A stretch of DNA of 64,000 nucleotides from a virus: positions 1 to 64,000 of IMG/VR virus record IMGVR_UViG_3300045391_006216. One strand, 5' to 3'. The first letter of the stretch is position 1. Each line of letters opens with the position of its first letter. The notes beneath the pieces were generated by a model. That model was not told the DNA's origin. It made no database searches and was given only the letters and a program-made list of their open reading frames with translations. Positions 390 to 30,252 of the stretch are shown piece after piece. Position numbers and translations under genes: made by a program.

Positions 390-454
390 GAATCAGGGTT
401 TGAGGGTTGCATCTGGCAACCTAGTTGCCAGATAGGGATCTGAAACCCTCATTC
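390..454. repeat. About 65-bp nested palindromic element, related to the copies at 43317-43457
   Basis: Outer arms GAATCAGGGTTT / AAACCCTCATTC; inner hairpin ATCTGGCAAC-cta-GTTGCCAGAT. Confidence 0.8.
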
Positions 455-1857: not shown

Positions 1858-2142
1858 CTACGCTATCAACTTTTTTTTTACATCATCTTCAAGCACAAGA
1901 GTAATTGGTTTTTTACCATAAACAACGACGGCGTACATTTCTTGAGCGCAAGCCATTGTCATGCCATAAACGTATTCAATTAACTTTAAAATATCAAAAT
2001 AATAAATTCTAGCTCTGGCACATTTAATAATGTCGAACTCGTCTTCATTCAAAGAAATATTTTTATTATCAATAATATCTAAAGTTTCTTTACCTATTTC
2101 GTATTCTGTCATTAATACCACGCGAGTTTGGGCGTCAAGCAT
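1858..2142 (-). CDS. Hypothetical protein
   Basis: 94-aa ORF overlapping the portal stop, likely co-transcribed. Confidence 0.6.
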   Translation of the reverse strand: MLDAQTRVVLMTEYEIGKETLDIIDNKNISLNEDEFDIIKCARARIYYFDILKLIEYVYGMTMACAQEMYAVVVYGKKPITLVLEDDVKKKLIA

Positions 2143-15100: not shown

Positions 15101-18100
15101 TAGCTTCTTCTGCCCCTGCGGCTTGTTTTGCTAATTGTTCGTAGCCAGAACCGACGCGTTCTAGGTCTTTGGGTTTAATTTTAATGTTACCGACAAAAGA
15201 ATCTATAAGTTTAATTCTGGCATTAAGTTCATCAATTTGCGATTGAATATTAGCTTTATTGGCATCTCCTTTTACAGTTTTCAATTGGTCTTGTAAATCA
15301 GCAAGTTGTGAACTTAGTTGTGTTTTCTGTTCCTTAGCTTGAGCAACTAATTTTTGGTTAGCTTTATACTGTTCATCACTCAGTCTAACGCCACGCTTAT
15401 CGGCATCTGATTGAATATCAGAGGCTTTTTTCAAGTCACGAGCAGTTTTGATTGCTTGTTCTGATAATTTAGCAGTGCGATCGCCAAGTATTTCTGTTGC
15501 TTCGTTGGCATCTTTAAGTTGGAGAGAGTACAGACCAATGCCAATTAAACCAATTGCAGCAGCTAGGGCAATTAGTGGTGCAGCGAGTAATAACAAAGGT
15601 GCGATCGCAGTATAAAGAGCGGTGGCAAAAGTAGCAAGTCCTACGGTTGCACCACCAGTGGCCGCGGTCAACCCAAATAAACTGCTAACAGTAATACCGT
15701 TGGCAGCTAAAAATTGTGCAGACGCAACAGTTCCTTGGGTCATAGCGATGCCCAACGCCCTAACTCCAATGGCGGCACTAGAAGCAGAAGCAGCTAGCCC
15801 TACAAACCCCACAGCACTCAATGTTGTTGCTAGACCTGCTAAGATTCCAGCTAAATTTACTGCCCATCCTGCTAAGGTTGTGCTGATTAATTTAGCAATT
15901 GAGGGGATCAGCCCTACATTGATAGCTATGGTTAATCCAACTACCGCTGTTGTAGCAAGAGCAAAAGGATTACCAAAAGCTATTTTTAGCATGTCTGCTA
16001 AAGAACCCAAACCTTGAATAACACCGTAAAGAATTTCTTTAACGGTTTCATTTTGTAGTACAAATTTATCAAAAGCCAGGAACGCTAAGTATGCGCCACC
16101 AGCAAGTAGCCCAAAAGTGAGGATTTGTCCTGCGATCGCAGTACCAATATTCTTGAGAACAGCAGCAAATTGCTGATTGAGCAACAGCACTCTATCAGTG
16201 GCATTGGCGTATAATCCCACTGCATTAGCGGCTTGGGTAAACAATGGAGCTAACGGGGCAAGGTAAATATTTGATGAAACGAAAGCACCAGCCGCGGTAA
16301 TCAAAGCTGGTGTCAGGGTAAGAAGGTTGCTTAAAAATGCCCCTATTGCCGGAAATAAAGTTATTAGCCCAGCAACTTGAATACCAACACCAGCGACAGT
16401 GGGAATAAACCCAACGAGTAATCCACCTAACGGCCCTAAAGCTACGGTTGCCGCTTCTGCCGCACCTGGTATTTCATTGAGGTATTTACCCAAAATTAAG
16501 AATCCGCCACCACCAGTACCAAGGACTTTAGATAAATTGATGAATTGATTTGCCACACCATTGGTTCGTAAATCCAGGGCAAACATCACTTCACCAAGTC
16601 CCGGAACCAGTTGAGTCAAAGTTCCGAAAACGTCGCCCAAGGTTGTCACGCCTACCGATAAAGCTTTGACTGTGACAAAAGATTGTAAAAATACTCCACC
16701 TAATGGGCCAGATGCCTTGACCAACTCTGTCATGAAACGAATTGCCGGCCCCAAAGCTTCTGCTACAAATTTAATTCCCCCTGCTAACGCTTCTGCTGCA
16801 TTAGCCAAAGATTTAAAAAGATATATGGGTGCTTCTGCAATCAATCCACCAACTGAAGAAAACACGGTTTTAGCGGCGTCTACAACTGCCAAACCAACTC
16901 TTAGTATCTGGTCACTAATTAATCCAAAGTAAGTAACAAATTGCTCTTGATTGGTTTTTAAGTAGTCATAAACACTAGTAACTTGTTCAATTAGGGGGTC
17001 GAGCAATCTTTCCCCTGCCCTTCTGCCAATTTCATCGAATACTTCCTGTATGTTACTAATTACACCTGAAAAAGAAGCGGCAGCTAACGCATTTCCAGCC
17101 CGGAAAGGAGCTAGTTTTTTTCGCAACTCCTCAACTAAACGACCTTGAGATTTCCAGTTGTTGACTTGTTCGTTACTAATGTTTAAGCTTTTGGCTAAAA
17201 CAGAATTTTGGTCGATGGTTCCAGATAAAATACTACCTATTTCTTGTCTTGATTGATACAAGGGAATTTGTAATGTACCTAGACTTGCGGCGAAATCTAA
17301 GGATAGGTCTTTGGCATCTGTAAGTTTCCCACCAATACCCGTAATTTGACCAGCAATTTGTTGGTACAGGGGAACTAAATCTTTACTTGTGACCCCGACT
17401 AAATCTAAAGATTCAAGCCTAAGTTTATCGATCGCGGTTTTGATTGGGTCTTCTAGCGATTGAATAGCAGTTTTAGGGTCGATAATTTGTTGTCCAGTAA
17501 ATCCGCTATAAATTTTTGATGTAGCAACTAAAGAAGATTGGGTCGAAAGTAGTTGCTCTCTTAGTTCTATGTTTTGCCCAATCAAAGTCTTGAAGGGGCC
17601 AGTGGTGGCAAACTGTTGGAGGGATGATAAACCTTGACTAAAAAACGCAACCCGCTCTACTACTGAAGAGATGCCATTAGCAAACCCAGCGATTGTATTT
17701 TGTAAATATCCGAATACTTTTAGTGGCTCATTAAACCCAGCGATCGCACCTGGAAATTGGGCAATGGTGTTAAGCGGGGCAGCTATTTTGCTGGGGAGAG
17801 TCGAGAGGGTATTGTAAATTCTAATGGCTGATTTATCAATCGCATCAATGGCAGGGGATACTCGCTCAAAACCAGCTCCAAAAAATCCGGCGAGGAATGC
17901 TCGATTAGCATTTTGTCCAATTCTGCCGAACAAACTAGAAAAAACTCCACCAAACAAACCGTTAATTCTTTCAGCTAATCCCGGAGGAAGTTCAGTAAAA
18001 TTTAAATCAATTTTCAAAATACTACCGATTATCTTGCCGAGGTTTGTTGCAACTACCCCTGCCACTGAACCGAAAGTCCTTCTAATAAAATTGACGACGT

Positions 18101-21050
18101 TGCCAAAACTTGTTTCTAGCGAAGTAACAACAGTATTAAAAATTGGCGTTAGCTTGGTAACAATTGCCCTAGCACTATCAACGGCTTCATTAAAAAATTT
18201 ACCAAATCCGCCTCTACCATTTGCACCTATGCCGACTAAAGCACTATTAATCAGTCCAGTTAAAGTTCTAACTGCACTAGGCACAACCGTATCTATAGCA
18301 TTGATGGTATTACGCAATCCAACGCTTAATCCAGACTGAATATTCCTTGCAGTGCCACTACTAAAAGCAGAAACCGCAGCGATGGCTCCTTGTAGCTTGT
18401 TACCAAAATCAATAAATAATCCGCTTGAATTTGCTACTTTGGTTTGGATAAACGATAAACTAGTATCTGCAATTAACTTTAAATCTGTAAATCTATCACG
18501 GACAAATTGTATTTGTGTAGCAAAGGTTGTTCCAAAACTAGTAGATGTTTGAAGAGTATTTAAAAACGCATCTATGTTAGAAAATCCTTGCCCTAAAGAA
18601 GTTCTTAAACTACTAATTGAACTAGCAATTTGAGCAACTATACTAGGAATTGCAGATTTAATAGAGTCTATTCCTCTAGACGTAAATATTAATAATGATT
18701 GAATGTTTCTATTTGCAATTGCAACGCCAGAGCTAACAGTGTTAAAAACACTTGTAATACCAAGTTTGATATTAGGAATTATATTTTGAGAAAAATTGTT
18801 AAGCCCTTGCAAGAAGTTACGAACATTATCAATGCCACCAATAGTAAAGCCTAAACTTGTGTTGGCGATCGCTTTGATTTTTGCTTGCAAAAACCCTATT
18901 GCTTGAATAGCTTTTTGAATGCCTTCTTGTAAAGCGTCAATTATGCTATCTCCAATAGTAGTACCTCTCAAGCTTTGAAGTGCAATGGAAGCATCAAGCA
19001 AAGTGTTAACAATATTTGCAGATATTTGGTCAATACCGTAGTTAAAATTCATTACAAAATCAATAGCATCTATTTTTAATCCAGTCAATCCTGCATCTGC
19101 ACTAGTTACTAAAGAATTAATCAACGATTGAGTGTTACCAAGAATATTGGGAATTCCTGCGACTCCACTTTTAAACCCACGTAACAGGGTATCAGTTAAT
19201 TTTAACCCGGCGTTAACATTAGTTTTTAAATTTCCAAGCACTCCATCTAAAGCAGCAAAATTAGATTTTAAATTTGCAGGTTTGAGATTTTCCAACAAAG
19301 CATCAAATACAAATCCCGGCGCTCCACTTTCTAGTAAACTGGTTTTAACAACATTTTTTAAATATCCGGGTAAAAATGCTGTTGCGGCAGAAGCTATAGC
19401 ATTAGCTCCTGCATCCTTGAAACGCTTAGTTACATAGTTGGCAGCACTGTCAACCAAAGGAGCTAAAATTACAGGTAATTGTGTATCAATGGCTTTCCCC
19501 AAACTTGCGGCTACTGCCCTACCTAAAATTGCATCAAGCTGCTTTAATCCAGGGATTTGGCCTTTAATACCTGTAACTTTAAAAAGTTGTTGAATAATGC
19601 CGTCAAAATCCAGCAGTTGATCAACAATTGCGCCAGGTACAGGGACAAAAGAAGTAATCAAATTTTTAATCTGGTCGTTTATAAGCCCTGATAGCACCCC
19701 TCCTCTAGAACTACTTAATAAAGGTAAATTGCTAGTTCCAAGTCCTAGACCTGCGGTAAATTTTGCCCCTACACCATCAAAAGTACTACCCAAAATTTCA
19801 CGGCTTCTTTGATTACGTTTTTTAATTTCTGGGTCGAGTCCATCGAATAATCGATTGGCTAATCTAACTCCTGAATTGTAAGCTACATTTTCTACAGAAG
19901 TATTAGTTAAATTAAATAGATTTCCTAATGGTGCTGATATACCTTTTTGAGTAACTTTTAATAAAGCATCGCTAAAAGAACCATTTAATAAATCTTGAAT
20001 TGAAGAAGAAAGCACACTTTTAACAGCAGAATTTTTCAGAATACTTTTAACCAATCCAGTGGAAACATTGTTACCTAGAACTTGTCCAATTCGCTGATCG
20101 ATTACAAAATTTGCTATTTGAGAATCTAATTTAGCAAAGCCACTAGTTGTCTCAATTTTTAAATTTGCTAGTACTTCTATTTGATTTTTCAATCCACTTT
20201 GGTTTAATAAATCAGCGAGTGGCTTGAATTGTGAACTTTTAATTTGTTGAGAGATATCAAGTAGTAAACTATCAATTGCACCTGCCGTAGAACCAGTAAG
20301 TAAAGATTTAAGAAAAGTAGGAGAATATTGTGCGATCGCTGGGTTAGTAGCAATATTTTTAATAATATCTTGACTTGTACCTTCGCCAATTGCTAACCCA
20401 AAAGTAGCATCAATAATACTTTGTGATAATTGCTTGTCTAATCTCTGAGCTATTTTACCAACAATTTTTAACCCTTCATTGTCAAAAGTTCCCAGAGCAT
20501 TTTTTAAAGGATTAAAAACTTTTTCGCCAATACGTCCAACACCTAGACTAATGCCATCATCTAGTTGTTGAGAAATACTACGAGTATCAAGGTTAAATAA
20601 TTTTTGACTAAACCCAGCACCAATATTAGTCCCAACAGAACTAACTTCTTTAAGTAAACTACTAAGAGGCGCTAATTCTTTGGTCGCTTCTTCAGCAGAT
20701 TGTTGTATTTGCCCAATAAAAGTTTGACCAATTGGCGACTGAATACCTTCTTTAATTTTACCAACTACTGAAGTTAATCCAACAAGTTTAGAGATTGCGC
20801 CTCCCAAAGCGCCAGTAGTTGCTACACCCAATCCAATGATAGCTACACTAGTGTCAGTTACCTTAACTCTAGTTAAATCTGCATAGTTAATGACAAATTG
20901 TAACGCCTGTCCAGTTCCAATTAAAGATTTAGAAAGTATCGCGGTTTCTTTATTTAGATTATTAAAAGAAATACCAGTTTTTTTAATTACATCACTGGCA
21001 ACATCTTTGGCTTCTATAACTACTTGAACTTTATTATTTGATGTTGCCAT
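12177..21050 (-). CDS. Tape-measure-like protein, 2957 aa
   Basis: N-terminal V.VVIEAKD.AS; long A/G/L/I amphipathic region; central tape-measure-like segment (EIGSILSG.IDQNS.LAK.L); hydrophobic segments; C-terminal coiled coil. Confidence 0.8.
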   Translation of the reverse strand: MATSNNKVQVVIEAKDVASDVIKKTGISFNNLNKETAILSKSLIGTGQALQFVINYADLTRVKVTDTSVAIIGLGVATTGALGGAISKLVGLTSVVGKIKEGIQSPIGQTFIGQIQQSAEEATKELAPLSSLLKEVSSVGTNIGAGFSQKLFNLDTRSISQQLDDGISLGVGRIGEKVFNPLKNALGTFDNEGLKIVGKIAQRLDKQLSQSIIDATFGLAIGEGTSQDIIKNIATNPAIAQYSPTFLKSLLTGSTAGAIDSLLLDISQQIKSSQFKPLADLLNQSGLKNQIEVLANLKIETTSGFAKLDSQIANFVIDQRIGQVLGNNVSTGLVKSILKNSAVKSVLSSSIQDLLNGSFSDALLKVTQKGISAPLGNLFNLTNTSVENVAYNSGVRLANRLFDGLDPEIKKRNQRSREILGSTFDGVGAKFTAGLGLGTSNLPLLSSSRGGVLSGLINDQIKNLITSFVPVPGAIVDQLLDFDGIIQQLFKVTGIKGQIPGLKQLDAILGRAVAASLGKAIDTQLPVILAPLVDSAANYVTKRFKDAGANAIASAATAFLPGYLKNVVKTSLLESGAPGFVFDALLENLKPANLKSNFAALDGVLGNLKTNVNAGLKLTDTLLRGFKSGVAGIPNILGNTQSLINSLVTSADAGLTGLKIDAIDFVMNFNYGIDQISANIVNTLLDASIALQSLRGTTIGDSIIDALQEGIQKAIQAIGFLQAKIKAIANTSLGFTIGGIDNVRNFLQGLNNFSQNIIPNIKLGITSVFNTVSSGVAIANRNIQSLLIFTSRGIDSIKSAIPSIVAQIASSISSLRTSLGQGFSNIDAFLNTLQTSTSFGTTFATQIQFVRDRFTDLKLIADTSLSFIQTKVANSSGLFIDFGNKLQGAIAAVSAFSSGTARNIQSGLSVGLRNTINAIDTVVPSAVRTLTGLINSALVGIGANGRGGFGKFFNEAVDSARAIVTKLTPIFNTVVTSLETSFGNVVNFIRRTFGSVAGVVATNLGKIIGSILKIDLNFTELPPGLAERINGLFGGVFSSLFGRIGQNANRAFLAGFFGAGFERVSPAIDAIDKSAIRIYNTLSTLPSKIAAPLNTIAQFPGAIAGFNEPLKVFGYLQNTIAGFANGISSVVERVAFFSQGLSSLQQFATTGPFKTLIGQNIELREQLLSTQSSLVATSKIYSGFTGQQIIDPKTAIQSLEDPIKTAIDKLRLESLDLVGVTSKDLVPLYQQIAGQITGIGGKLTDAKDLSLDFAASLGTLQIPLYQSRQEIGSILSGTIDQNSVLAKSLNISNEQVNNWKSQGRLVEELRKKLAPFRAGNALAAASFSGVISNIQEVFDEIGRRAGERLLDPLIEQVTSVYDYLKTNQEQFVTYFGLISDQILRVGLAVVDAAKTVFSSVGGLIAEAPIYLFKSLANAAEALAGGIKFVAEALGPAIRFMTELVKASGPLGGVFLQSFVTVKALSVGVTTLGDVFGTLTQLVPGLGEVMFALDLRTNGVANQFINLSKVLGTGGGGFLILGKYLNEIPGAAEAATVALGPLGGLLVGFIPTVAGVGIQVAGLITLFPAIGAFLSNLLTLTPALITAAGAFVSSNIYLAPLAPLFTQAANAVGLYANATDRVLLLNQQFAAVLKNIGTAIAGQILTFGLLAGGAYLAFLAFDKFVLQNETVKEILYGVIQGLGSLADMLKIAFGNPFALATTAVVGLTIAINVGLIPSIAKLISTTLAGWAVNLAGILAGLATTLSAVGFVGLAASASSAAIGVRALGIAMTQGTVASAQFLAANGITVSSLFGLTAATGGATVGLATFATALYTAIAPLLLLAAPLIALAAAIGLIGIGLYSLQLKDANEATEILGDRTAKLSEQAIKTARDLKKASDIQSDADKRGVRLSDEQYKANQKLVAQAKEQKTQLSSQLADLQDQLKTVKGDANKANIQSQIDELNARIKLIDSFVGNIKIKPKDLERVGSGYEQLAKQAAGAEEAILKSSGDSAIFKQKAEELLSATEKQAEAGQISADEAIRRYNLVATNAFASQELQDKAQQGITAAFKRESDKRISIVQAQQSAISAQLALGRVDYEQNAKAISDAQNSLLKSRLDAENELHQTKLKQIQKEFDDQTFVNNSLLKQKQDEAAKLSAQGQDASAPLAQAETLKAKIIQIEKDKNAALISENTRNTRISSELSSQIAENEISANLVAADLRIKVNKGIISQELAAEKQLTFAKKVELETQLRNTNDNYSERRKIIERDFANTTKYLEDEIAKKQSEASKAPANSPALAAAQSDISALNTKLINSNKAKTASLLLLEQNYKTEVTKINADIQKNQADSAEKESAIQIKILERNQKKALDAVQIAQNERLIQIQQLENKGLLDRTEVEEKKTQASKVNIDAQLNQERLRLKALQALPKPKNQEKAADFDAQIRASQLKIQDLVKQSLSAELTLYKQHIEVIKSQIKDEDNIRETQLESQARKGLVTQAQVNEELARRKVSALEKEYNLETRDASKRIELALAIEKAKTALLDAEIKTRQEKLEVENQKLKNQIDEQNQSIKRQGDLYQILTKAIEQRNKLLEVSRDLAKAGTDFVLGELEVLSSVERSEYRRKQLAEVTASIKLQSLRQQQEYERQSLLNQLEQNKLALEQEAIQNRINQGQKLADIAGVKADIAVMEADPRNQSVAGQAKIKALQIKLQSEVDALGFLQAEGGLISQKFQGQQTQAQAQLEQLNLKQNLDTLKARAELANALPPGKQQQSQRQLQQEIAQLFGQKNIREFYNAAIAQSRGIAAKEFPISSTPDILAAISPNLGGILDMVGGQAATAAIGDATKTFDKEYGNTANITGALTTGIAKTPLQTPLEVQRAQSLSQQILGQVNQPISLVQDASLKLPAPSERTATLSLESSGKLFKQGVDKLVDYLKPLTNQANNTYNIKIDAPTQNLAATGSGSNVSLEKVLDYAKQMAGAY

Positions 21051-21053
21051 AAA

Positions 21054-24000
21054 TTATTTATTTTTGATTAGATTAGATAAATTTTGTTGAATACTTTTGA
21101 CTGTATCTGATATCTTTTCAGGAGATTCAGCAACAAAATCTGAGAAGTCGATTAATTTTTCATCTACTGTCTTTAAAGTTTTAGAAACTGTACCTTGCCC
21201 TAAAAATACACCTAGCAATTTAGCTTCATGGGCTAGCGTTTCTTTAATCTTTTCTTTACGGGTCAGTTGTTGTTTTTTAGTTAAATTACGATGCCCTTGT
21301 TTAACCAGTCTAGATGTCCTCAGATATGCTCTTTCTAAATCTTGTCCTAATCCACCAATGGTTTGAGACACAGCACCTCTACCAAGTTTTGCAGATATTT
21401 TTCTAGGATCGAATTCTTTAATACGACATTTACGACCAACTGGTAGGCAAATATCACCGCAAGGATTTCCGGTTTTACATTTTTTAATGAAATCAAGATG
21501 TATAAGTTCTTTTTCTAATCTATAAGCTTCTGAGTCTAATTTAGACGTATTCAACTTTTGTTCTAAAACTTGAATCAATTTGTCAGTATTTCTGTAGTTA
21601 TTTTCTATGTTTGTAATTGTTGAATACTTTTTCAATAAATTCCAATCTCCTTTCTCATGCTTGAAATAAGAAATGTACCTACTTTTAATTTCGTCAACAG
21701 TATGTTCGCTGCGGAGTTTTTTAAGAGTTTTTAAGTATTGCGATAAAGCGTTGCGTTCTGACAAACTAATTTGTCCAACATCTAAGTTTTTAAAATTATC
21801 TAGAGTTTTTGAGGATAGGTTTCGCGTAAAAGCTAATCCATTATCTATGCCATTAAATGAATTTGTTCTAGAGTCATATATTAAATTTTCAGACTTCCTA
21901 TCCCAATTGCCAATAAAAGTGTCAAATGCTGCGATTTTAGGTAGGTCTGAATGTTTTGATAAACCTAAAAGCATTGCTGGAGTTAAGCCCGACTGCTGCT
22001 TGATATTAAGATTTTCAAAAGCAGAATTTGAATTAGTTTTTAATTCAGCTAATGTTTTTCCGGGAACGATGGAGTGCAAGGATGCCCCAGCAAATCTTGT
22101 TTTTAATGGAGATTTAAGGTTTGCTGGAATTAAAGAAACTTTATTGATATTAATGCTTGATTTTTGAGCAATATCAGAAGCAGTAGCTTCTGAAGCCGCT
22201 TCTAAAAGGTGGAAGTTGTGCCTCACTTCTTTGAAAACAAATCTTTTGTTGCTAGCATCTTTAACAAATAAAGCCTTACCAATTGCTCCTTGTTTCGGAG
22301 AAGTACCATCTGGTTTTAATTTGTTGAGATATTTTTGATTGACAATTTGTAGCTGATTATCTGCAAGTAACGGAACGTCAAATTTAGTACCTAAATATAT
22401 AGCAGCGATCGCACCTGCACCTCCCACAGTTCCAATTGCTGCTGCCGTCGTTGTACCAGTAATTGCGGCATTTATGTGGCAGGTATTGGCTTTTGGAATA
22501 CAAATTTCGCCGCAGTTTTTAGTATCTGTGGAACATTGCGGAGTTTTATCTGAGTCTTTGCGCTTCCCAATTCTGCGTCTTACTTCTTCAGGGGAGCCTT
22601 GATAATATCCAAAAGCCTCTCGGATGGCATCCCTAACTCTCTCATCGCTCAAATAATCCCTAGCAGAACCGCCTGCAACAGAGCTAATCCATTGTTGCCT
22701 TGCGCCTTCTCCAAAAGTAGGAAGAATTGATATTGGGTCTTGGGGACTAATAATGGTGCGCTGTCGGCGAGATACATTTTCTGCAAATCCAAAATGTGGA
22801 GTTCCTAGATAAACAGCATTTACTTGCTCCATTACTTTTTTCCCGGATGGACTGCCTTTAAGTTCCATACGAGAAAGAATTTCTAGAGCCTCTTTAGTTA
22901 CCAGTCCCCCATTGCAGTGGGCCACTATATTGATTTTTTTGCTTCTGTTGACCAAAGTTTTGCCATCTTGGGGAGAAATGGCGATCGCATGAGCATAGAT
23001 AGAAGCGGCCAAATCAACCGCATCTTGATTGCGCTTGCGAGCAAAATTTTGGATTATGCCACCCACGCCATTAACCACAGTACTGGCGATTCCTGGTTCT
23101 CCGCCTCCTTCAGGTTGGGGTGTACCAAATTCTTTCAAATTAAAAGGAATCACGTAATTGCTATGGGTTAACCAGTAGTCTTTGGCATTGTCCGCGTTCT
23201 TTTCGCGTTGTAGCAACGATTTCATTTCTTCTGCGCCGTAGCCTTTACCAGACCCAATAGCAAAAGTGATGTTGTCTTGGTTGATGCGTGAAGTCATCCT
23301 TGGTTTGCCATTGGGTAACAAACTAGGTTCGCCGTCCCGTTCAAGTGGGTGTTGCAAATTCAGTTTGCTAGCTTGTTCTTCAGCCATCCTTGCCGATTCA
23401 TTAAATCCTTCACGATAACTTTGTTTCGCCTGTTCGTAGCCCTTGATGGTTCTACCGATGAGAAACGCGCCAACAGCAGCTGCGCTCCAAGAAACAGGGG
23501 AAGTGCTTGCAAATTTAGCCAACGCCTCTAGCTTGCGCCAAACGTCGGCAGTATTTTTGAGCGATCGCTTAGTAGAACGCTCTAGCGGCGTACCTCTACC
23601 CGATAATCCGGCAGACGCAATTGCCTTTGTACTGAATCCAGTACGCTTTGAAATACCACGGGTAATTTTGTCCCGTGATTCTGGTTTTTGATCATAGAGT
23701 TGCAATGTACCTTGTAACTCTTTAATAGTCATTGACCCGTAACCATAGATTCTTTTTTCTTGAGCTTGCTTCCTTAATTCGCGGATGGTGTAGGGAATTC
23801 CAGTTTGTGGGTTAACAATGTATTTGGATTTTACTGGTATGTCATTATTTTCAGGATTTTGAGGTATTGACGCGATCGCTTGGTTTTGTTCAAGTTTGAA
23901 TTGAACTATTGATTGTTTGAGTCTAGCTATTTCGTTAGGCGTTGCAATTTGATTAATTGACAACTTACAGGTATCATTAGCTTCGATGCAAGTATCACCA

Positions 24001-27000
24001 CAACTTATGCCCTTACGGCACTTTTTTTTTAAAATTTTTCTATCTTGTCTATAATAACTATCTAATTTAGCAGAATTTCTACTTAATTTATAAGTGAATT
24101 TATTATCTTTAAATGTAAATTCTAGGATTTTACCAAGACTATCTTGAGCTAATCCAATCACATTGTTATCTAGAGTGATTTTTATACCACCGACTTTAAC
24201 AATTGGCTTACCATAACTCCTAGATAATAATATTGAGAATTGATTTTTGATTTGTTGAAGATTATCATCAGATGAATCTTTAGATACGCGAGATGATTCT
24301 ATATTTTTATTTCGATCAAAATGTTTTATCAGAACTTCTTTAACACTTTCATTTGGAACAGATTCATTAAATATATTACTAGAAACTCCTTTCTTCCAAA
24401 CTCCATTTTCATCGTATAATTTATATGGTGTATTGGAAAAATAACCCATGTGTCCAACCACATTTACAGGTACTTTATTAGGCATTGTTGCCCCATAAAT
24501 TTTATCTACAGGGTCTTTTTTGGGGTCAATTAAACTAATTCCAGATGGAGAAGTTAGCCCAAAATATGGACTACCTGCTGTAACAACTCTAATATCTTTA
24601 ACACCTATTTTTTTAAGGATTTCTTCTGCTTCCCTCACTGGCATTCCTCCGCCAGATTGACCAATTAAATTGATAGGTAATCCAGGGTGTTTTTGATGAT
24701 AAGCATAAGCACGAGCAGCAATTCTCACAGCTACTTCACTTCTACCTTTTGTTAGGTTGTCTTTCAACAAAGCCGAGACAACTTTTTTTAAATATCTAGG
24801 ACTAGCAACAGTATCACCTTGAGCAAAAGAAACTTCTTGCTCTGGAGTTTCAATACCTACAACATGATGGTCGGATAACATTTTGGCAACTTGCAATCCC
24901 ATGTGGTCACCTTCAAGTCCATCCACTGCACCTATCCCACCTGCAAAAAAAGTTATTTGGTGTGCTGGTTTTCCTGTGTTTACACTTGTTACATCGGATT
25001 TAATAGAACTACCAGGCAATTGTTGATCGCTTATTGACCTGAATCCGGTAAAAGTAGTATTAGGAACTTTATAGGTCTTGGCTTGTTCTTTGGCTAGCTC
25101 CGCTGAATTTGAAAACCCTGCTTTAAACCTTGCTTTTTGGATTAAATAGGCCGCTGTTGGTATTCCCATAATTGCAGCACCAGCAGCTATTCCAGACCCG
25201 ATAGCTAACTGATTGCTTGGGTTTTGACTTAATTTAAGATTATTATTTTCTACCTTACAAGTAGACGTTTTAGGAATACAAATATCACCGCAATTATGTC
25301 CAATTTTACATTTAGCTTTATCTATTCTAAATACTGAATCTGCCTTTTTCTGCCCAAAAACTAACCTTTGCATTTGCTGTTGATTAGTAACGGATAGTTT
25401 TCTTCTGATAGTTGCATTTTCTCGAATAGCATTGCTTTTTCCGTAAAAAAATCCTCTAGCTTCTTCGTAAGTCTGGTCTAGTTGTCCATATCCTCGATAG
25501 CCTTTTTTGTAATCATCACCCGCAGGATTTTCAAGCCAGTTATGAACGCTAGGAACATTGAGTGGTTGAAAATTTTGTACCGGAAGTACCATCATTTTAT
25601 CAACTGGTAAAACCCGTTTAATCCCTTCATGGAACTCCTGAGATGCAGTTTTTTCATCAGAAGTATCTTTGTCTTTAGATTGCAATTTTTCCCTAGAACC
25701 AATTGTAACCAATTCATCTTTTTTTAATTCTGTCAATCCAAAATAAGGAGTAGCAATCAAAAATCCCTTAGATTTTATATTTTTTTGTTTTAAGATTTCC
25801 ATTGCTTCTGCTGCAACTATACCACCACCAGAATGCCCAATAAAATGAATGTCTTTATCAGGAAATAATCGTTTATACATCATGGCATGAGCCGCAGCAT
25901 CTATAGCATCAGCATTATTTAGTTTTTGTGTAGCATTATCATAGAGCATTTGAAGGTCAGACTTATACCTAATCAATTCCCTAGCTACAGGTTCTATAGA
26001 TTTATATTGTTCTGAAGTCCGGAGTTTATTATCTCTAAAATCGTTCCAATTTTCCTTACCAACTACATTACCCATAAAGTCATCAAATCCACGGCGACTT
26101 AGATATCCCCGCTTAACTTTTCCACCTTTACCATCATCATCTAATTCCTGTGCCATAATGTCATTCATAGGCAACCAAGTCATTTCAGGTGTAATATTAA
26201 CTTTTTTATTAGTTAAAGGAATTAAACTATGATTTGGCAAATCTGAAGCCATTTGATTTGCTAAACCAAATCCTAATTCTCCATAATCATTAAATCCACC
26301 AATAGTAAAGCCAATACTAGGACGTTTGGGGTCTACAGCATAAACACTGCTACGAGTGACGTTACCTTGAGCATCCCATTTATCAGCTTTAACAATTGCT
26401 GTTTTTTGAGTGTTGGTTAACTTTTCAGGAGGAATATTTAATTTTTTGGATATTTCTTCAGTCATTTGTTTCTCTAAAGCAAAACTTTGAATTTCTGCTT
26501 TTTCTGCTGAAGCTTTAAATCCTTCTCTGTATCTATTACGAAATCCTAAATATGCAGATGCCGGAATTCCAATTAACGCTGCTCCTGCGGCTACAGGGGT
26601 TATCAACCCAATTGCCAGTCCAAGTCCTAAGCTTGTTTTGATTTCTTGGTTATCGTTACTGGGAGATTTAATCGACAAATTTAATCCACTACGGCATTTT
26701 AATTTTGCAGATATATATCCTTTGCCACAGGGCTTACCATCAGCTTTATCTCGACGAATAGAACTTAGTCTTTGTTTGATGAATTCGCGGAAACTACTGT
26801 CTGCAAAATAACTATTTTGTCCGTGGTCTAAAACATTATCAAAATTTTTACCATTAACTCCTCGACCAGTAGTCATTTTAAGGATACCGTCGTGTTTGCT
26901 AACAGCAGTTACTAAATCCCCAGTTCCAGGAATTAATCCAACATCCGGAGAGCCAATAGCAGTAGTTCTCATCTTGATTCCTGCTTTGTGCAGTATTTCG

Positions 27001-27707
27001 TGTGCTTCTTGCACAACTAATCCACCGCCAGAATGCCCCATCAATTGATATTGTTTTTCTGGATAAACTTTTTTTGTGGCAATAATTTTAGCAGCAACAG
27101 ATACAGCGACAGGGTTGTAACCTTTCTCAAAAACTGTTTTGATAAATAAATTTTTAGCTTCTTGTTGTGCTTGTTTTTTAGTAGCTTCGTCTACAGGACG
27201 GGTAGGAACATTAAATTCTGCATAAGATTGAGGTTCTACGTAAAGTCCTTTTATCTCCAAAGATTCAATGTTTTTTCTTAAAACTTCACTTTCTGAGTAA
27301 GCATCTTTAGTACCAAATCCACCTACAGTTAAAATAACCGTCTCAACTTCTTTACCTAAAGTAGGCGCTTTAATATTTTTAGATTCAACTTCAGCACGAA
27401 CAGCGCTAACAGCAAAATTCTCTTGATATCTTTTTCTGGCTTGGTACAACGTCGCTGCCCCAAAAACACCCAAGCCGGCTGCGATCGCAGCCGCACCTAA
27501 TGTTGCTCCAATGGCAACACCACCAGTAACATAGCCTGCTTTATTTTCAGTGGTAGTTTTAGGATTTTTTAGTGTGGCAGATTTAGTTGAGCTAATATTG
27601 CATTTATGCTCTTGAGAAATACAGGTTTCACCGCATAATTTACCTGTATTGCATTTAATAGAATCAAAAACTAATTTCTTTGATTCTAGGTATTCAATTG
27701 ATGACAT
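21054..27707 (-). CDS. 2217-aa modular polyprotein: 6 Cys tags, 4 alpha/beta hydrolases, a HipA/PI3K-like kinase and a Rho-N-like helix motif
   Basis: GHSGGG (about 27030), GHSGGG (about 25830), GQSGGG (about 24655), AHCNGG (about 22915); FDTFIGNWDRKSEN...GIDNGLAF kinase motifs; a hydrophobic Gly/Ala helix precedes each enzyme. Confidence 0.85.
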   Translation of the reverse strand: MSSIEYLESKKLVFDSIKCNTGKLCGETCISQEHKCNISSTKSATLKNPKTTTENKAGYVTGGVAIGATLGAAAIAAGLGVFGAATLYQARKRYQENFAVSAVRAEVESKNIKAPTLGKEVETVILTVGGFGTKDAYSESEVLRKNIESLEIKGLYVEPQSYAEFNVPTRPVDEATKKQAQQEAKNLFIKTVFEKGYNPVAVSVAAKIIATKKVYPEKQYQLMGHSGGGLVVQEAHEILHKAGIKMRTTAIGSPDVGLIPGTGDLVTAVSKHDGILKMTTGRGVNGKNFDNVLDHGQNSYFADSSFREFIKQRLSSIRRDKADGKPCGKGYISAKLKCRSGLNLSIKSPSNDNQEIKTSLGLGLAIGLITPVAAGAALIGIPASAYLGFRNRYREGFKASAEKAEIQSFALEKQMTEEISKKLNIPPEKLTNTQKTAIVKADKWDAQGNVTRSSVYAVDPKRPSIGFTIGGFNDYGELGFGLANQMASDLPNHSLIPLTNKKVNITPEMTWLPMNDIMAQELDDDGKGGKVKRGYLSRRGFDDFMGNVVGKENWNDFRDNKLRTSEQYKSIEPVARELIRYKSDLQMLYDNATQKLNNADAIDAAAHAMMYKRLFPDKDIHFIGHSGGGIVAAEAMEILKQKNIKSKGFLIATPYFGLTELKKDELVTIGSREKLQSKDKDTSDEKTASQEFHEGIKRVLPVDKMMVLPVQNFQPLNVPSVHNWLENPAGDDYKKGYRGYGQLDQTYEEARGFFYGKSNAIRENATIRRKLSVTNQQQMQRLVFGQKKADSVFRIDKAKCKIGHNCGDICIPKTSTCKVENNNLKLSQNPSNQLAIGSGIAAGAAIMGIPTAAYLIQKARFKAGFSNSAELAKEQAKTYKVPNTTFTGFRSISDQQLPGSSIKSDVTSVNTGKPAHQITFFAGGIGAVDGLEGDHMGLQVAKMLSDHHVVGIETPEQEVSFAQGDTVASPRYLKKVVSALLKDNLTKGRSEVAVRIAARAYAYHQKHPGLPINLIGQSGGGMPVREAEEILKKIGVKDIRVVTAGSPYFGLTSPSGISLIDPKKDPVDKIYGATMPNKVPVNVVGHMGYFSNTPYKLYDENGVWKKGVSSNIFNESVPNESVKEVLIKHFDRNKNIESSRVSKDSSDDNLQQIKNQFSILLSRSYGKPIVKVGGIKITLDNNVIGLAQDSLGKILEFTFKDNKFTYKLSRNSAKLDSYYRQDRKILKKKCRKGISCGDTCIEANDTCKLSINQIATPNEIARLKQSIVQFKLEQNQAIASIPQNPENNDIPVKSKYIVNPQTGIPYTIRELRKQAQEKRIYGYGSMTIKELQGTLQLYDQKPESRDKITRGISKRTGFSTKAIASAGLSGRGTPLERSTKRSLKNTADVWRKLEALAKFASTSPVSWSAAAVGAFLIGRTIKGYEQAKQSYREGFNESARMAEEQASKLNLQHPLERDGEPSLLPNGKPRMTSRINQDNITFAIGSGKGYGAEEMKSLLQREKNADNAKDYWLTHSNYVIPFNLKEFGTPQPEGGGEPGIASTVVNGVGGIIQNFARKRNQDAVDLAASIYAHAIAISPQDGKTLVNRSKKINIVAHCNGGLVTKEALEILSRMELKGSPSGKKVMEQVNAVYLGTPHFGFAENVSRRQRTIISPQDPISILPTFGEGARQQWISSVAGGSARDYLSDERVRDAIREAFGYYQGSPEEVRRRIGKRKDSDKTPQCSTDTKNCGEICIPKANTCHINAAITGTTTAAAIGTVGGAGAIAAIYLGTKFDVPLLADNQLQIVNQKYLNKLKPDGTSPKQGAIGKALFVKDASNKRFVFKEVRHNFHLLEAASEATASDIAQKSSININKVSLIPANLKSPLKTRFAGASLHSIVPGKTLAELKTNSNSAFENLNIKQQSGLTPAMLLGLSKHSDLPKIAAFDTFIGNWDRKSENLIYDSRTNSFNGIDNGLAFTRNLSSKTLDNFKNLDVGQISLSERNALSQYLKTLKKLRSEHTVDEIKSRYISYFKHEKGDWNLLKKYSTITNIENNYRNTDKLIQVLEQKLNTSKLDSEAYRLEKELIHLDFIKKCKTGNPCGDICLPVGRKCRIKEFDPRKISAKLGRGAVSQTIGGLGQDLERAYLRTSRLVKQGHRNLTKKQQLTRKEKIKETLAHEAKLLGVFLGQGTVSKTLKTVDEKLIDFSDFVAESPEKISDTVKSIQQNLSNLIKNK

Positions 27708-27718: not shown

Positions 27719-28669
27719 CTATTTTTTAGGAGGTCTACCACGCTTTGGTTTGGATGAAGTTTTTGCAGGAGGTAAGCTAGGTGGTGGAACTGGCGTAACT
27801 GTAACTTGCCGAGGTTTAGGAGCTTGTTTTTGTGGATTTGGAGGATTTATTGGCGTAGCTTCTGACTGATTAGTAGTCTTTTTACCAAAAAATGTTTCAC
27901 TGATATTTCTAGCTTTTCTTGTAGTAGTCTTAGCACTATTCTTAGCAGTGGTTTTGATATCTTCCCCAGCTGCTTTTAAGTTGCGCCCAATTGCTCTAGA
28001 CGCATTTTCAGCCCCCGCCACCGTAAGTTCTTTAGCAGTTTCAAATCCTGCCTTGAGGCTCATCTTAGCTCCTGATAAACCTGTTTTTAATTCATCACGC
28101 CCTTCTGTCCCTGCACGCTTTAGTCTTTCGGCAACTGCTTTACCACCTCTTGCTAGATTTTTACGGTTTGCATAAGCTAATCCTCCCGCAGCAGTAGCTC
28201 CAGCGGCTAAGGCAACACCACCAGCAACACCACCAGCAAGAGCAAGTCCACTACCACTTTTGAGCTTGCCTGTGCCCCCACTCCCACCACCATGTTTACG
28301 ACAAACAGAACCTTTGGGCAGGCAAATTTTACCGCACGGCGTACCTCCTTTAGTACACCTAACTTGAGCATCAAGATTTAACATGCCAAAAGTGTATTCA
28401 ACAGGGAAATCACTATCTGTCTTTATGCCATACCCGGCAAGTAAACCTTGGGCATATTCATTTAATTCTGCGGTTTCTTCTTCATGATGTAGAACGCCTA
28501 TATTTTCATCATCGAAAGCATAAGTGTAAAAATCTCCAGAACTTAATAAATTTCCATATATCACCCCATTTTCATCTTCATTTGCAGTTAATACTTGTAC
28601 GGGCGCATCAAATTCTTCTACAATAATCTCCCCAATAGCTTTGTTTCTTTCTGCAATTTGATTAACCAT
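27719..28669 (-). CDS. Cys-tag protein with a hydrophobic helix and a basic/Pro-rich tail
   Basis: CTKGGTPCGKICLPKGSVC; GLALAGGVAGGVALAAG; C-terminal KRGRPPKK (AT-hook-like). Confidence 0.8.
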   Translation of the reverse strand: MVNQIAERNKAIGEIIVEEFDAPVQVLTANEDENGVIYGNLLSSGDFYTYAFDDENIGVLHHEEETAELNEYAQGLLAGYGIKTDSDFPVEYTFGMLNLDAQVRCTKGGTPCGKICLPKGSVCRKHGGGSGGTGKLKSGSGLALAGGVAGGVALAAGATAAGGLAYANRKNLARGGKAVAERLKRAGTEGRDELKTGLSGAKMSLKAGFETAKELTVAGAENASRAIGRNLKAAGEDIKTTAKNSAKTTTRKARNISETFFGKKTTNQSEATPINPPNPQKQAPKPRQVTVTPVPPPSLPPAKTSSKPKRGRPPKK

Positions 28670-28676
28670 AAAACTC

Positions 28677-29348
28677 CTAATTGATGACTGTTCGTAAATA
28701 CTGCATCCCTAGTTTTGATGCTGTTCTTTTAATCACTTCGTGGTGATAGTCTGCTTCTGCTTCATCTATTCTTTTTTTACCTGTAATAATTTGTGTTAAA
28801 TATTCTTTATAAACCTGTTTTTCATATTGTTTATAAGTCGGTTTGACACGCGATCGCCAATAATTTTCATTCCATCCAGTTGGAGGTGGCTTGAGTGAAT
28901 GGCGATAACTGCTAGACACTGCCCTAATCTCTGCCATGTTCACTCTACAAGCAACTTCAACATCTGAAGCCGAAAAACTTAACCCCTTGCTTCTAGCGTC
29001 ATTTTCGCTCCACCCTAAATTGGGGTGATTGTGAGTAACAACCGCACCTCGCATTTGTTGTAAATCTTGAGAAGATAAGTAAACACTGGTTGAATCACCT
29101 CCTTTAGAAACAAGTATTTTACCAGTGGTTGGATGAAAAGCAATGGCTTTCTCTTTTGGTAAGTCTTTAATTTGGTTTTCTACTTTCTCAACAAGAGCGT
29201 TTAACTCTTGAGAATTTAAACGGCATTTATGAATTTTGGGAATGCAAGCTTCCCCGCACCGCTTTGATTTGTTGCTGCACTTGGGATTGAGGTTTTTTAT
29301 ATCCTGGCGAACTTGGAGGTAAGTTTTGACTCTTGTTAGTGCTAGCAT
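28677..29348 (-). CDS. Cys-tag protein with a JAB/MPN-like metalloenzyme domain
   Basis: CSNKSKRCGEACIPKIHKC, then E.A...G..L...G...SV...THNHP...SFSASD. Confidence 0.75.
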   Translation of the reverse strand: MLALTRVKTYLQVRQDIKNLNPKCSNKSKRCGEACIPKIHKCRLNSQELNALVEKVENQIKDLPKEKAIAFHPTTGKILVSKGGDSTSVYLSSQDLQQMRGAVVTHNHPNLGWSENDARSKGLSFSASDVEVACRVNMAEIRAVSSSYRHSLKPPPTGWNENYWRSRVKPTYKQYEKQVYKEYLTQIITGKKRIDEAEADYHHEVIKRTASKLGMQYLRTVIN

Positions 29349-29407
29349 TTACATCAGAAAAAATATTACCTTTTAAGTGAGAGTCATCAATAATAAACCC
29401 TTCTTGG

Positions 29408-30195: not shown

Positions 30196-30212
30196 GACTA
30201 ATTACCTAAACT

Positions 30213-30248
30213 TGCTCCCGCTACACCCGCAAGGGTTAGCGGTGAGAG
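30213..30248. other. Intergenic hairpin
   Basis: ctc-ccgcta-c-accc-gcaa-gggt-tagcgg-t-gag. Confidence 0.45.
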
Positions 30249-30252
30249 GATG

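What the first reader, a model, noticed from the sequence alone, without database searches (positions are those of the whole stretch)
21560..27600. Four diverged membrane-anchored lipase-like domains plus a HipA-like kinase in one phage protein
Seen: each hydrolase module runs Cys tag, linker, Gly/Ala hydrophobic helix, R/K..Y/F..[GN]F..SA..A helix, then an alpha/beta hydrolase. The nucleophile elbows are GHSGGG, GHSGGG, GQSGGG and AHCNGG, with G.P[DYH].G downstream. The fourth has Cys in place of Ser and no obvious catalytic His (VAGGS), so it may be inactive or altered. A fifth module swaps in a kinase (FVFK, EA.A, DRK.EN, IDNG). Inference: these are membrane-targeted lipases/esterases and a kinase acting during DNA entry, in host takeover or in anti-defence.
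Basis: partly seen in the sequence, partly recalled or inferred. Interest (0 to 1): 0.78.

Follow-up and report, generated by a model that had tools for sequence, protein, structure and literature searches.

The report
Cyanophage virion cargo protein: lipases plus kinase
A Nostoc-infecting phage encodes, just before its tape-measure gene, a 2217-residue protein made of six cassettes, each opened by a short cysteine tag: three apparently active lipase-like enzymes, one dead copy, an unusual kinase and a conserved tail piece. Its relative in phage CL131 is carried in the virus particle, so it is probably delivered into the host at infection.

Summary
Window 21054-27707 (- strand) is one 2217-aa ORF of six modules, five of them opened by a basic C-x5/6-C-G-x2-C-[IL]-x6-C tag and one by a 2-Cys short form.

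- **M1-M3** are paralogous alpha/beta hydrolases. The M1 model matches minimal lipases at Z 14.8. The Ser-Asp-His triad is clear in M1 and M3; the acid residue of M2 is unclear.
- **M4** is the most conserved module and is a pseudo-hydrolase. Its nucleophile position is Cys here but Gly in all more distant relatives, and the His is missing here. It also carries a HeH-like motif.
- **K5** is an intact atypical kinase of the CtkA / PI4K-II / HipA kind (Z 14.8-12.4). It is not a HipA toxin.

The CL131 homologue gp048 gave the top-scoring protein identification in purified virions. The same tag occurs in this phage only in the portal, MuF and two neighbouring small virion proteins. Each internal tag follows a conserved [KR]-x-D-[SA] site that also sits at the capsid protein N-terminus.

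Best reading: a head-packaged, protease-segmented, ejected array of membrane-directed effectors. Relatives swap in J-domain, LRAT and extra kinase modules. Packaging site, cleavage, membrane insertion and substrates are inferred, not shown.

This is a new variant of phage polyvalent or cargo proteins. The scan has already noted tag-punctuated cargo polyproteins in other phages.

The parts
21054..27707 (-). Whole ORF, 2217 aa (P0001): six-module polyvalent virion protein. It stops 3 nt before the tape-measure start codon.
26748..27707 (-). Module M1 (aa 1-320). Tag aa 19-36, hydrophobic Gly/Ala segment aa 58-90, alpha/beta hydrolase aa 84-317 with S226, D273 and H295.
   Evidence: AF2 core pLDDT about 90. 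Foldseek gave 170 hits at E<=1e-3; the listed top hits are alpha/beta hydrolases. VIA 6nkc_B Z 14.8. Residues.
25311..26747 (-). Module M2 (aa 321-799). Short 2-Cys tag aa 327-338, hydrophobic segment aa 356-389, hydrolase with S626 and H722. The acid residue is unclear because of a 26-aa insert. This module occurs only in the closest relative (P0005); P0010 has a distant M2-like module.
   Evidence: weak Pfam Hydrolase_4, DUF900 and Thioesterase matches at aa 587-659
24021..25310 (-). Module M3 (aa 800-1229). Tag aa 800-817, hydrophobic segment aa 834-857, hydrolase with S1018, D1065 and H1086, then a small C-terminal domain (..FTFKD..) ending in KLDS.
22536..24020 (-). Module M4 (aa 1230-1724), the most conserved module. 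Tag, HeH/Rho_N-like motif around aa 1300-1335, short hydrophobic stretch aa 1405-1420, and a pseudo-hydrolase (C1598 at the nucleophile position, D1657, no His).
   Evidence: Orthologue alignment. Pfam DUF676 30.7 bits against a cut-off of 20.3, at aa 1588-1644. Rho_N hit on the same motif in P0025.
21480..22535 (-). Module K5 (aa 1725-2076). Tag aa 1725-1743, hydrophobic segment aa 1749-1775, atypical kinase with K1826, D1936, N1941 and D1955.
21057..21479 (-). Module C6 (aa 2077-2217). Tag plus a conserved C-terminal part with no family match, present in 16 of the 17 relatives.
   Evidence: no Pfam or Atlas match
27719..28669 (-). Neighbour P0003 (316 aa). Small acidic N-domain ending KTDS and NLDA, Cys tag, Gly/Ala hydrophobic segment, basic tail with an AT-hook-like KRGRPPKK. 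Its CL131 homologue gp045 is an abundant virion protein.
28677..29348 (-). Neighbour P0004 (223 aa). Cys tag plus a conserved HNHP...SxSD (JAB/RadC-like) domain. Its CL131 homologue gp044 is in virions.
12177..21050 (-). Tape measure protein (2957 aa, no cysteine, no tag), immediately downstream of the ORF.
2135..5650 (-). Portal with InPase and LPD1 extensions. It carries the short tag GKPCGDGFIPGNKEC followed by HQDA (tag at about nt 3820).
449..1765 (-). MuF-like head protein carrying KTDS followed by the short tag GKPCGESYIAQGYDC (tag at about nt 1519).

Best explanation
P0001 is a virion-carried polyvalent cargo protein of a CL131-like Nostoc phage.

Shown:
- It is a string of six cassettes: three alpha/beta-hydrolase modules with an intact nucleophile and His, one conserved pseudo-hydrolase with a HeH-like motif, one intact CtkA/PI4K-II/HipA-type kinase, and a conserved C-terminal part.
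- Each cassette opens with a basic Cys tag.
- The homologue in phage CL131 is a major protein of purified virions.

Inferred:
1. The tag marks proteins that are built into the head. In this phage it occurs only in the portal, MuF and this gene cluster.
2. The head-maturation protease cuts at the conserved [KR]-x-D|[SA] site a few residues before each tag, so the protein is stored as separate pieces.
3. At infection the pieces leave with or ahead of the DNA.
4. Their Gly/Ala-rich hydrophobic segments hold them on a host membrane (cytoplasmic or thylakoid). There the hydrolases cleave or transfer acyl groups of lipids, and the kinase phosphorylates a membrane-proximal lipid or protein.

The set of cassettes is interchangeable between related phages. 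This is the hallmark of an effector array under conflict-driven selection.
For: Architecture and paralogy.

Folds:
- M1 model: core pLDDT about 90. Foldseek gave 170 hits at E<=1e-3 and the listed top hits are alpha/beta hydrolases. The best VIA match is lipase Lip_vut1 6nkc_B, Z 14.8, rmsd 2.8 over 156 aa.
- K5 model: pLDDT 83. CtkA Z 14.8, PI4KII-alpha 12.9, HipA 12.4, MavQ 12.2.
- 44 of 60 K5 homologues match Pfam HipA_2 and 29 of 60 match PI3_PI4_kinase. The catalytic K, N and D are at least 90% conserved.

Virion presence: CL131 ORF048 scored 453.8 with 54.6% coverage, 105 peptides and 175 PSMs in CsCl-purified particles. ORF044, 045 and 047, which are also tagged, were detected too (PMC6293099).

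Head link:
- All 10 tag matches in the 64-kb window lie in MuF, the portal, P0001, P0003 and P0004. The tape measure protein has no cysteine.
- 5 of the 8 [KRH]xD[SAG] sites in P0001 lie within 30 aa upstream of the 5 internal tags, a zone that is 8% of the protein.
- Under a looser pattern, 61 of 68 tags in relatives have such a site upstream.
- The capsid protein N-terminus IR[LM]DA is conserved in 6 relatives.

Effector character: relatives swap in DnaJ J-domain, LRAT, a second kinase and extra hydrolase cassettes behind the same tag and hydrophobic segment.

Gene order is conserved in five phages.
Against: - No peptide-level data show cleavage, and no experiment places the protein in head rather than tail.
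- The gene sits directly before the tape-measure gene, where tail genes usually lie.
- No transmembrane predictor was available. The hydrophobic segments are Gly/Ala-rich and were modelled with pLDDT below 50.
- A J-domain behind the same segment in relatives would have to face the cytoplasm. That fits a simple N-in single-pass topology poorly.
- The hydrolases match no specific lipase family above Pfam cut-offs, except DUF676 on the dead module. Esterase, thioesterase or acyltransferase activity on non-lipid substrates is equally allowed by the fold.
- Two of the tags have only 2 Cys, so metal binding cannot be general.
Confidence: 0.58

Rival explanations
1. It is a tail-associated accessory of the tape measure protein. 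The protein, whole or cut, travels with the tape measure in or at the tail. It inserts into the outer or cytoplasmic membrane from the periplasmic side through its hydrophobic segments. Its lipases locally open the envelope for the DNA channel, in the way that muralytic domains on tape measure proteins open the wall.
For: - The gene abuts the tape-measure gene with a 3-nt gap, and this order is conserved in five phages.
- The tape measure protein itself has a block of a dozen or more similar Gly/Ala hydrophobic segments.
- The CL131 record's annotation note for gp047, a stand-alone hydrolase cassette, describes it as similar to a 'tape measure domain protein' of Leptolyngbya.
Against: - Folded 25-30-kDa hydrolase and kinase domains do not fit beside a tape measure in a siphovirus tail lumen. 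This rests on general knowledge of tail dimensions and was not tested here.
- The tag is shared with the portal and MuF, which are head proteins, and is absent from the tape measure protein.
- Relatives carry a J-domain cassette, which needs cytoplasmic DnaK.
- P0003 carries an AT-hook-like end and M4 a HeH-like motif. Both point to DNA contact.
Confidence: 0.2
2. It is mainly a structural internal-core protein. The cassettes serve to fill or organise the head or to hold the DNA end, like inner-body proteins of large phages. The enzyme folds are relics with little or no activity in the host.
For: - The best conserved module is the catalytically dead M4. C6 is also nearly universal, whereas the active-looking cassettes come and go.
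- Virion abundance is high.
Against: - Ser and His, and the Asp where it can be placed, are conserved in M1/M3-type cassettes across 40-50% identity.
- The kinase keeps every catalytic residue.
- Gain and loss of enzymatically distinct cassettes (J-domain, LRAT, second kinase) argues for selection on activities.
Confidence: 0.1
3. It has a late intracellular function. The membrane-anchored lipases and kinase would act in the producing cell, for example in membrane breakdown at lysis or lipid scavenging. Their presence in virions would then be incidental.
For: - Lipolytic lysis enzymes exist in other phages, for example mycobacteriophage LysB (general knowledge).
- The gene is in the late operon.
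Against: - It gave the top protein score in CsCl-purified CL131 particles, with 54.6% coverage.
- It shares tags and putative protease sites with the portal and MuF.
- There are no holin or endolysin neighbours.
Confidence: 0.05

Closest known systems
Phage-type polyvalent proteins (Iyer, Burroughs, Anand, de Souza, Aravind 2017, PMC5512222)
   Same: Many unrelated enzymatic domains sit in one polypeptide, encoded among late virion genes. The protein is packaged and thought to be injected and cut into units. The domain sets vary between relatives. This phage's portal is itself such a protein (Phage_portal_3 + InPase + LPD1).
   Different: P0001 has no zincin metallopeptidase and no LPD domain. 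Its domains are alpha/beta hydrolases, a PI4K/HipA-type kinase and, in relatives, LRAT and J-domains. The paper's text has no occurrence of 'lipase', 'esterase', 'lipid', 'HipA', 'transmembrane' or 'cysteine'. Its kinases are a different, truncated Ser/Thr/Tyr-kinase group. The Cys-tag header plus hydrophobic segment in front of each domain is not described there.
Aphanizomenon phage vB_AphaS-CL131 gp048, with gp044, gp045 and gp047 (PMC6293099)
   Same: It is the homologue: 40% identity over the matched parts, the same gene order before the tape measure gene, the same tags, and four hydrolase-type or orphan cassettes plus M4. It was detected in virions by LC-MS/MS.
   Different: It is annotated only as a hypothetical protein. 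It has no kinase cassette, and no separate C6 segment was delimited. One cassette is a separate gene (gp047). No domain analysis or function was proposed in the paper.
T4 internal proteins IPI-III and Alt, with capsid-targeting sequence and gp21 processing
   Same: The working model is the same: proteins carry a short address peptide, are loaded into the prohead, trimmed by the head protease and injected with the DNA. This rests on general knowledge. The analogy is also used in earlier notes of this scan.
   Different: Here many cargo units are strung in one gene. The tag is a Cys-rich knuckle that would stay on the cargo rather than being removed. The putative site is after Asp, not Glu. None of this has been tested.
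Minimal lipases and acyl-protein thioesterases (Lip_vut1 6nkc, Bacillus LipA 1i6w, APT1 1fj2) and the DUF676/PGAP1 group
   Same: A small lid-less alpha/beta-hydrolase fold, a G-x-S-x-G elbow and a Ser-Asp-His order. The G[ST]PxFG strand after the elbow resembles the DUF676/PGAP1 pattern; that comparison is from memory.
   Different: Identity is 10-17%. Only M4, the dead module, passes a Pfam cut-off (DUF676). There is an extra N-terminal helix and a tag plus hydrophobic leader. The substrate is unknown.
HipA / HipT toxins, H. pylori CtkA, type II PI4-kinase, Legionella MavQ
   Same: The atypical kinase fold, with a [FL]D..[IG]N.DR...N catalytic loop and an IDxG metal site.
   Different: There is no HipA N-terminal domain and no adjacent antitoxin. 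The Pfam HipA_2 and PI3_PI4_kinase scores are below their cut-offs (23.8 against 27; 17.4 against 27.1). The kinase is fused behind a tag and hydrophobic segment inside a virion protein.

Membership tests
Alpha/beta-hydrolase fold superfamily (modules M1-M3) | Central parallel beta-sheet flanked by helices | tested here: met
   Tested on M1 only. Foldseek gave 170 PDB hits at E<=1e-3 and the listed top hits are alpha/beta hydrolases. VIA top 50 are Z 12.1-14.8. M2-M4 are linked to M1 by BLASTP E 2e-19 to 1e-5.
Alpha/beta-hydrolase fold superfamily (modules M1-M3) | Nucleophile elbow G-x-S-x-G, plus an acid and a His in the loops after the last two strands | tested here: met
   M1: S226, D273, H295, in loops after strands 219-225, 264-269 and 286-288 of the model. 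M3: S1018, D1065, H1086. These residues are conserved in relatives. M2 has S626 and H722, but its acid residue is ambiguous.
Active serine hydrolase (module M4) | Ser nucleophile and catalytic His | tested here: not met
   The sequence is AHCNGG here and in the close clade, and AHG[IMTY][GA]G (Gly) in all other orthologues. The His position is Gly here (VAGGS) and His in the Gly-nucleophile clade.
Pfam DUF676 / PGAP1-like lipid esterases | Score above the Pfam gathering cut-off | tested here: inconclusive
   DUF676 scores 30.7 bits against 20.3, but only on M4 (aa 1588-1644). M1-M3 give only sub-threshold Lipase_3, Hydrolase_4, PGAP1, Cutinase and Thioesterase matches.
HipA toxin-antitoxin kinases | HipA_C catalytic core with HipA N-domain, and a cognate HipB/HipS partner gene | tested here: not met
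   K5 has no HipA_N or HipA_C hit. HipA_2 scores 23.8 bits, below its cut-off of 27. The neighbouring genes are virion proteins, not an HTH antitoxin. The fold resembles HipA at Z 12.4, no better than CtkA or PI4KII.
PI3/PI4-kinase-like / HipA_2 atypical kinases (fold level) | Bilobal kinase fold with an ATP-binding Lys, a DRxxxN catalytic loop and a metal-binding Asp | tested here: met
   The model has pLDDT 83. CtkA scores Z 14.8 (rmsd 3.2, 214 aa). K1826, D1936, N1941 and D1955 are present. K, N and the last D are at least 90% conserved in 60 homologues.
Phage polyvalent proteins (Iyer et al. 2017) | Two or more disparate effector domains in one polypeptide, encoded with late virion genes | tested here: met
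Phage polyvalent proteins (Iyer et al. 2017) | Packaged in the virion | tested here: met
   Met through the homologue only: CL131 ORF048 in LC-MS/MS of purified particles. Not tested for this phage.
Phage polyvalent proteins (Iyer et al. 2017) | Zincin-like metallopeptidase or LPD domains typical of the class | tested here: not met
   No such Pfam hit in P0001 at E<=1. LPD1 and InPase occur in the portal gene instead.
Head-protease-processed internal cargo (T4 IP/Alt type) | Cleavage at head-protease sites and location inside the capsid | not testable with these tools
   Indirect evidence only: site and tag co-occurrence, and the RxDA at the capsid protein N-terminus.
Tape measure protein | Very long helical protein whose length sets the tail length | tested here: not met
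   P0001 is a chain of globular enzyme folds. The true tape measure is the next gene, homologous to CL131 gp049.

The most novel reading that the evidence does not exclude
The Cys tag together with the [KR]-x-D|[SA] site may be an undescribed loading-and-cutting header. It would let CL131-like cyanophages pack interchangeable enzyme cassettes into the head. On that reading the lipase, LRAT and PI4K-like kinase cassettes form a lipid-directed injected toolkit that remodels cytoplasmic or thylakoid membranes of Nostocales within moments of DNA entry. No phage is known to do this with virion-borne enzymes.
Probability: 0.3. Interest if true: 0.8.

Novelty: new variant of a known kind. Interest (0 to 1): 0.62.

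Why it matters
Virion-delivered proteins are the first weapons a phage uses, and very few are characterised outside T4, P1, N4 and T7. Here a major virion protein of bloom-forming and soil-crust cyanobacterial phages turns out to be an array of membrane-directed enzymes. It has a simple, recurring header that could be tested as a packaging and cleavage signal.

If confirmed, this would:
- add lipid attack and a PI4K-like kinase to the repertoire of injected phage effectors;
- give function to the most abundant 'hypothetical' virion proteins of the CL131 group;
- provide a portable tag for loading foreign proteins into phage heads.

Tried and rejected
The context of most homologues could therefore not be fetched, and only four related phage records were read.
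- **Stand-alone M1 homologues:** none of 176-560 aa were found at E<=1e-3. The length filter and the huge database make this weak evidence.
- **IMG/VR with the whole protein** found one relative. A degenerate tag pattern found four contigs.
- **PDB profile searches:** the hydrolase profile gave only marginal hits (cutinase 4psc, E 7e-4). The kinase profile gave nothing. The M4 N-terminal profile gave nothing relevant, so the HeH assignment rests on the motif and one sub-threshold Rho_N hit in a relative.
- **Pfam** found nothing for C6, the M4 N-part, the small domain after M3, or P0003.
- **ESM Atlas** gave nothing usable for C6 and only sub-0.9 leads for P0004.
- **Complex prediction** of the head protease N-half with a linker-plus-tag peptide returned no verdict, score 0.01.
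- **Sequencing runs:** no RNA holder is listed. Five soil-metagenome DNA runs hold the stretch.
- **DNA repeats at the tags** are only 63-86% identical over 35-38 nt, so recent duplication or a recombination hot spot is not indicated.
- **Rejected readings:** that P0001 is a tape measure or a tail chaperone, and that K5 is a HipA toxin.

Full report
**What is there.**

The finding lies in one open reading frame, window 21054-27707 on the - strand. It is 2217 aa long and ends 3 nt before the start of a 2957-aa tape measure gene at 12177-21050. The window is part of a 100-kb IMG/VR virus record. The only isolate with a homologue among 50,697 phage records is Aphanizomenon phage vB_AphaS-CL131. 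Its gp048 (1811 aa) has the same position before the tape measure gene.

A search of 5.8 billion proteins gave 17 relatives of 1274-2215 aa, from Nostoc assemblies and metagenomes. A scan of 185,579 species genomes with the most conserved module found three loci, all in Nostoc. Soil metagenomes hold the stretch.

**Anatomy.**

Of the 23 cysteines, 22 lie in six short tags. Five are full 4-Cys tags and one is a 2-Cys form. The only other cysteine is C1598. The consensus in relatives is C-[KR]-x-G-K-x-C-G-[DE]-[IV]-C-I-P-K-K-x-x-C.

Cutting at the tags gives six modules:

| Module | Residues |
|---|---|
| M1 | 1-320 |
| M2 | 321-799 |
| M3 | 800-1229 |
| M4 | 1230-1724 |
| K5 | 1725-2076 |
| C6 | 2077-2217 |

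M1-M4 are paralogues, with BLASTP E 2e-19 to 1e-5 outside the tags. A Gly/Ala-rich hydrophobic stretch (19-aa Kyte-Doolittle 1.57-2.04) follows the tag in M1, M2, M3 and K5, and in most cassettes of relatives. M4 has only a 12-15-aa stretch, about 175 aa after its tag.

**Hydrolase modules.**

An AlphaFold2 model of M1, built on 15 cassettes from four phages, has a core pLDDT of about 90. Foldseek found 170 PDB matches at E<=1e-3, and the listed top hits are alpha/beta hydrolases. The full VIA scan put the minimal lipase Lip_vut1 first (6nkc_B, Z 14.8, rmsd 2.8, 156 aa). Thioesterases, acyl-protein thioesterases and cutinases followed.

- S226, D273 and H295 sit in the canonical loops of the model. 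M3 has S1018, D1065 and H1086. These residues are conserved across cassettes that share only 25-50% identity.
- M2 keeps Ser and His, but a 26-aa insert makes its acid residue unclear.
- Sequence-level family assignment is weak. Only DUF676 passes its Pfam cut-off, and it does so on M4.
- The fold supports 'esterase, lipase or acyltransferase'. It does not identify a substrate.

**M4 is a pseudo-enzyme.**

M4 is the best conserved module in the family. At the nucleophile position the window and its close clade have Cys. All other orthologues have Gly. Where the nucleophile is Gly the catalytic His is kept, and where it is Cys the His is Gly. Neither version has a full triad.

The N-part of M4 carries a strongly conserved NPxTGxxYTIRELRKxA...GYGSM..xEL motif. 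In relative P0025 the same stretch matches Pfam Rho_N (HeH fold) at E 1.2e-4, just below the cut-off. A PDB profile search gave no support, so this remains a lead.

**Kinase module.**

HMMER against 1.84 billion representatives found 364 homologues of K5. Most are about 300-aa stand-alone proteins, and about a dozen of those listed lie inside 700-2100-aa proteins. Of 60 aligned homologues, 44 match HipA_2 and 29 match PI3_PI4_kinase. K5 itself is below both cut-offs. K1826, N1941 and D1955 are at least 90% conserved, and D1936 is the majority residue.

The model (pLDDT 83) is closest to the following:

| Structure | Z |
|---|---|
| H. pylori CtkA | 14.8 |
| actin-fragmin kinase | 13.1 |
| PI4KII-alpha | 12.9 |
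| CotH | 12.8 |
| HipA | 12.4 |
| Legionella lipid kinase MavQ | 12.2 |

It is therefore an intact atypical kinase. Whether it acts on protein or lipid is open. It is not a HipA toxin: it has no HipA N-domain and no antitoxin neighbour.

**Family variation.**

The core architecture in relatives is M1-M3-M4-C6. M2, K5 and extra hydrolase cassettes come and go. Behind the same tag and hydrophobic segment, relatives carry other domains:
- a DnaJ J-domain (E 6e-12);
- LRAT-type domains, in tagged P0030 and P0025 and in untagged P0026 and P0027;
- a second kinase (P0010).

Cassette exchange of this kind is typical of effector arrays. The recurrence of lipid-acting folds suggests a membrane theme. 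The J-domain argues that at least some cassettes face the cytoplasm.

**Virion link.**

In the CL131 paper, LC-MS/MS of CsCl-purified particles identified ORF048 with the highest score of all 23 proteins (453.8; 54.6% coverage; 105 peptides; 175 PSMs). ORF044, 045, 046, 047 and the tape measure protein were also identified (PMC6293099). I find the Cys tag in gp044, gp045, gp047 and gp048. I also find a conserved gene order in the window, in three IMG/VR relatives and in CL131: tagged JAB-like protein, then tagged hydrophobic protein, then tagged polyvalent protein(s), then a cysteine-free tape measure protein. The paper calls these proteins hypothetical and offers no domain analysis.

**Head or tail?**

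Within the 64-kb window the tag, in full or short form, occurs ten times. All ten are in MuF, the portal, P0001, P0003 and P0004. The portal and MuF are head proteins. The portal is itself a recognised polyvalent protein (Phage_portal_3 + InPase + LPD1).

I tested what I could:
- P0001 has 8 such sites, against 4.1 ± 1.9 in shuffles.
- Five of them lie within 30 aa upstream of the five internal tags, a zone that is 8% of the protein.
- Under a looser pattern, 61 of 68 tags in relatives have such a site upstream.
- The capsid protein begins M-x-I-S-x-x-I-R-[LM]-D-A-P-T, conserved in six relatives at 64-98% identity.
- The protease-scaffold protein has eight such sites.

This fits processing in the prohead but does not prove it. 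An attempt to dock a linker-plus-tag peptide on the protease gave no verdict.

P0003 ends in an AT-hook-like KRGRPPKK in three of five relatives. Together with the HeH-like motif this hints at DNA contact inside the head.

**Mechanism proposed.**

I give about 0.58 to the following model:
1. The tag addresses the protein to the assembling head.
2. The protease cuts it into six tagged pieces.
3. The pieces are ejected with or before the DNA.
4. The hydrophobic segments hold them on a host membrane, where the hydrolases and the kinase act.
5. M4 and C6 serve assembly or DNA binding.

The main rival, at 0.2, is a tail or tape-measure-associated envelope-breaching role, suggested by gene position. 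Lesser rivals are a largely structural core protein (0.1) and a late intracellular role (0.05).

**Comparison and novelty.**

The protein works like the phage polyvalent proteins of Iyer et al. 2017 and like the T4 internal proteins and Alt. It differs in three ways:
- its domain set is lipid- or membrane-directed. The words lipase, esterase, lipid, HipA, transmembrane and cysteine do not occur in that paper's text;
- it lacks a zincin peptidase and LPD domains;
- each cassette carries a Cys-tag plus hydrophobic-segment header.

Earlier notes of this scan describe other tag-punctuated cargo polyproteins in unrelated phages, and a kinase-bearing 1672-aa protein in a related cyanophage. The general class is therefore not new to the scan. 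I rate this as a new variant of a known kind, with interest 0.62.

**Limits.**
- Only two structure jobs were available, so M2, M3, M4 and C6 were not modelled.
- No transmembrane predictor was at hand.
- No peptide-level proteomics could be read.

Noticed in passing
window 28677-29348 (-): A 223-aa protein with a Cys tag followed by a domain with strictly conserved VTHNHPNLGW ... SFSxxD ... DYHHEVIKRTA in five phages (JAB/RadC-like motif). Pfam gives only a weak Tox-MPTase4 hit. Its CL131 homologue gp044 is in virions. It could be a peptidase acting on the cargo or on host conjugates.
   Followed up: partly
window 27719-28669 (-): A 316-aa protein: acidic N-domain, Cys tag, Gly/Ala hydrophobic segment, basic low-complexity tail ending in an AT-hook-like KRGRPPKK. 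Its CL131 homologue gp045 has 123 PSMs, as many per residue as the capsid protein. It is therefore a very abundant virion component of unknown role.
   Followed up: partly
window 2135-5650 (-): The portal protein (1171 aa) carries InPase and LPD1 extensions and a short Cys tag (GKPCGDGFIPGNKEC) followed by HQDA. It is a classic polyvalent portal.
   Followed up: partly
window 449-1765 (-): The MuF-like protein has KTDS followed by a short tag (GKPCGESYIAQGYDC) upstream of its MuF core.
   Followed up: no
window 37187-39676 (-): An 829-aa fusion of a GNAT acetyltransferase, DUF6610 and a C5 cytosine methyltransferase. It is probably a DNA-modification enzyme.
   Followed up: no
window 11675-12097 (-): The 140-aa gene just after the tape measure gene matches Pfam Adhesin_E (surface adhesin protein E) at E 5e-8, above the cut-off.
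   Followed up: no
window 27719-34000 and 10885-12177: No recognisable major tail tube protein or tail chaperone lies between the head-completion genes and the tape measure gene, where siphoviruses usually have them. The CL131 authors also failed to find one.
   Followed up: no
L024:10741-11928 (+) and P0019 aa 858-914: Relatives carry a DnaJ J-domain cassette behind the same tag and hydrophobic segment. P0030 and P0025-P0027 carry LRAT-type domains.
   Followed up: partly
window 24021-24410 (-) and 28358-28669 (-): A small domain (..QF..FTFKD.. / ..EEFDAPV..FYTYAFDD..) sits just before a [KR]xDS site and a tag, at the end of M3 and at the start of P0003. It has no Pfam match.
   Followed up: partly
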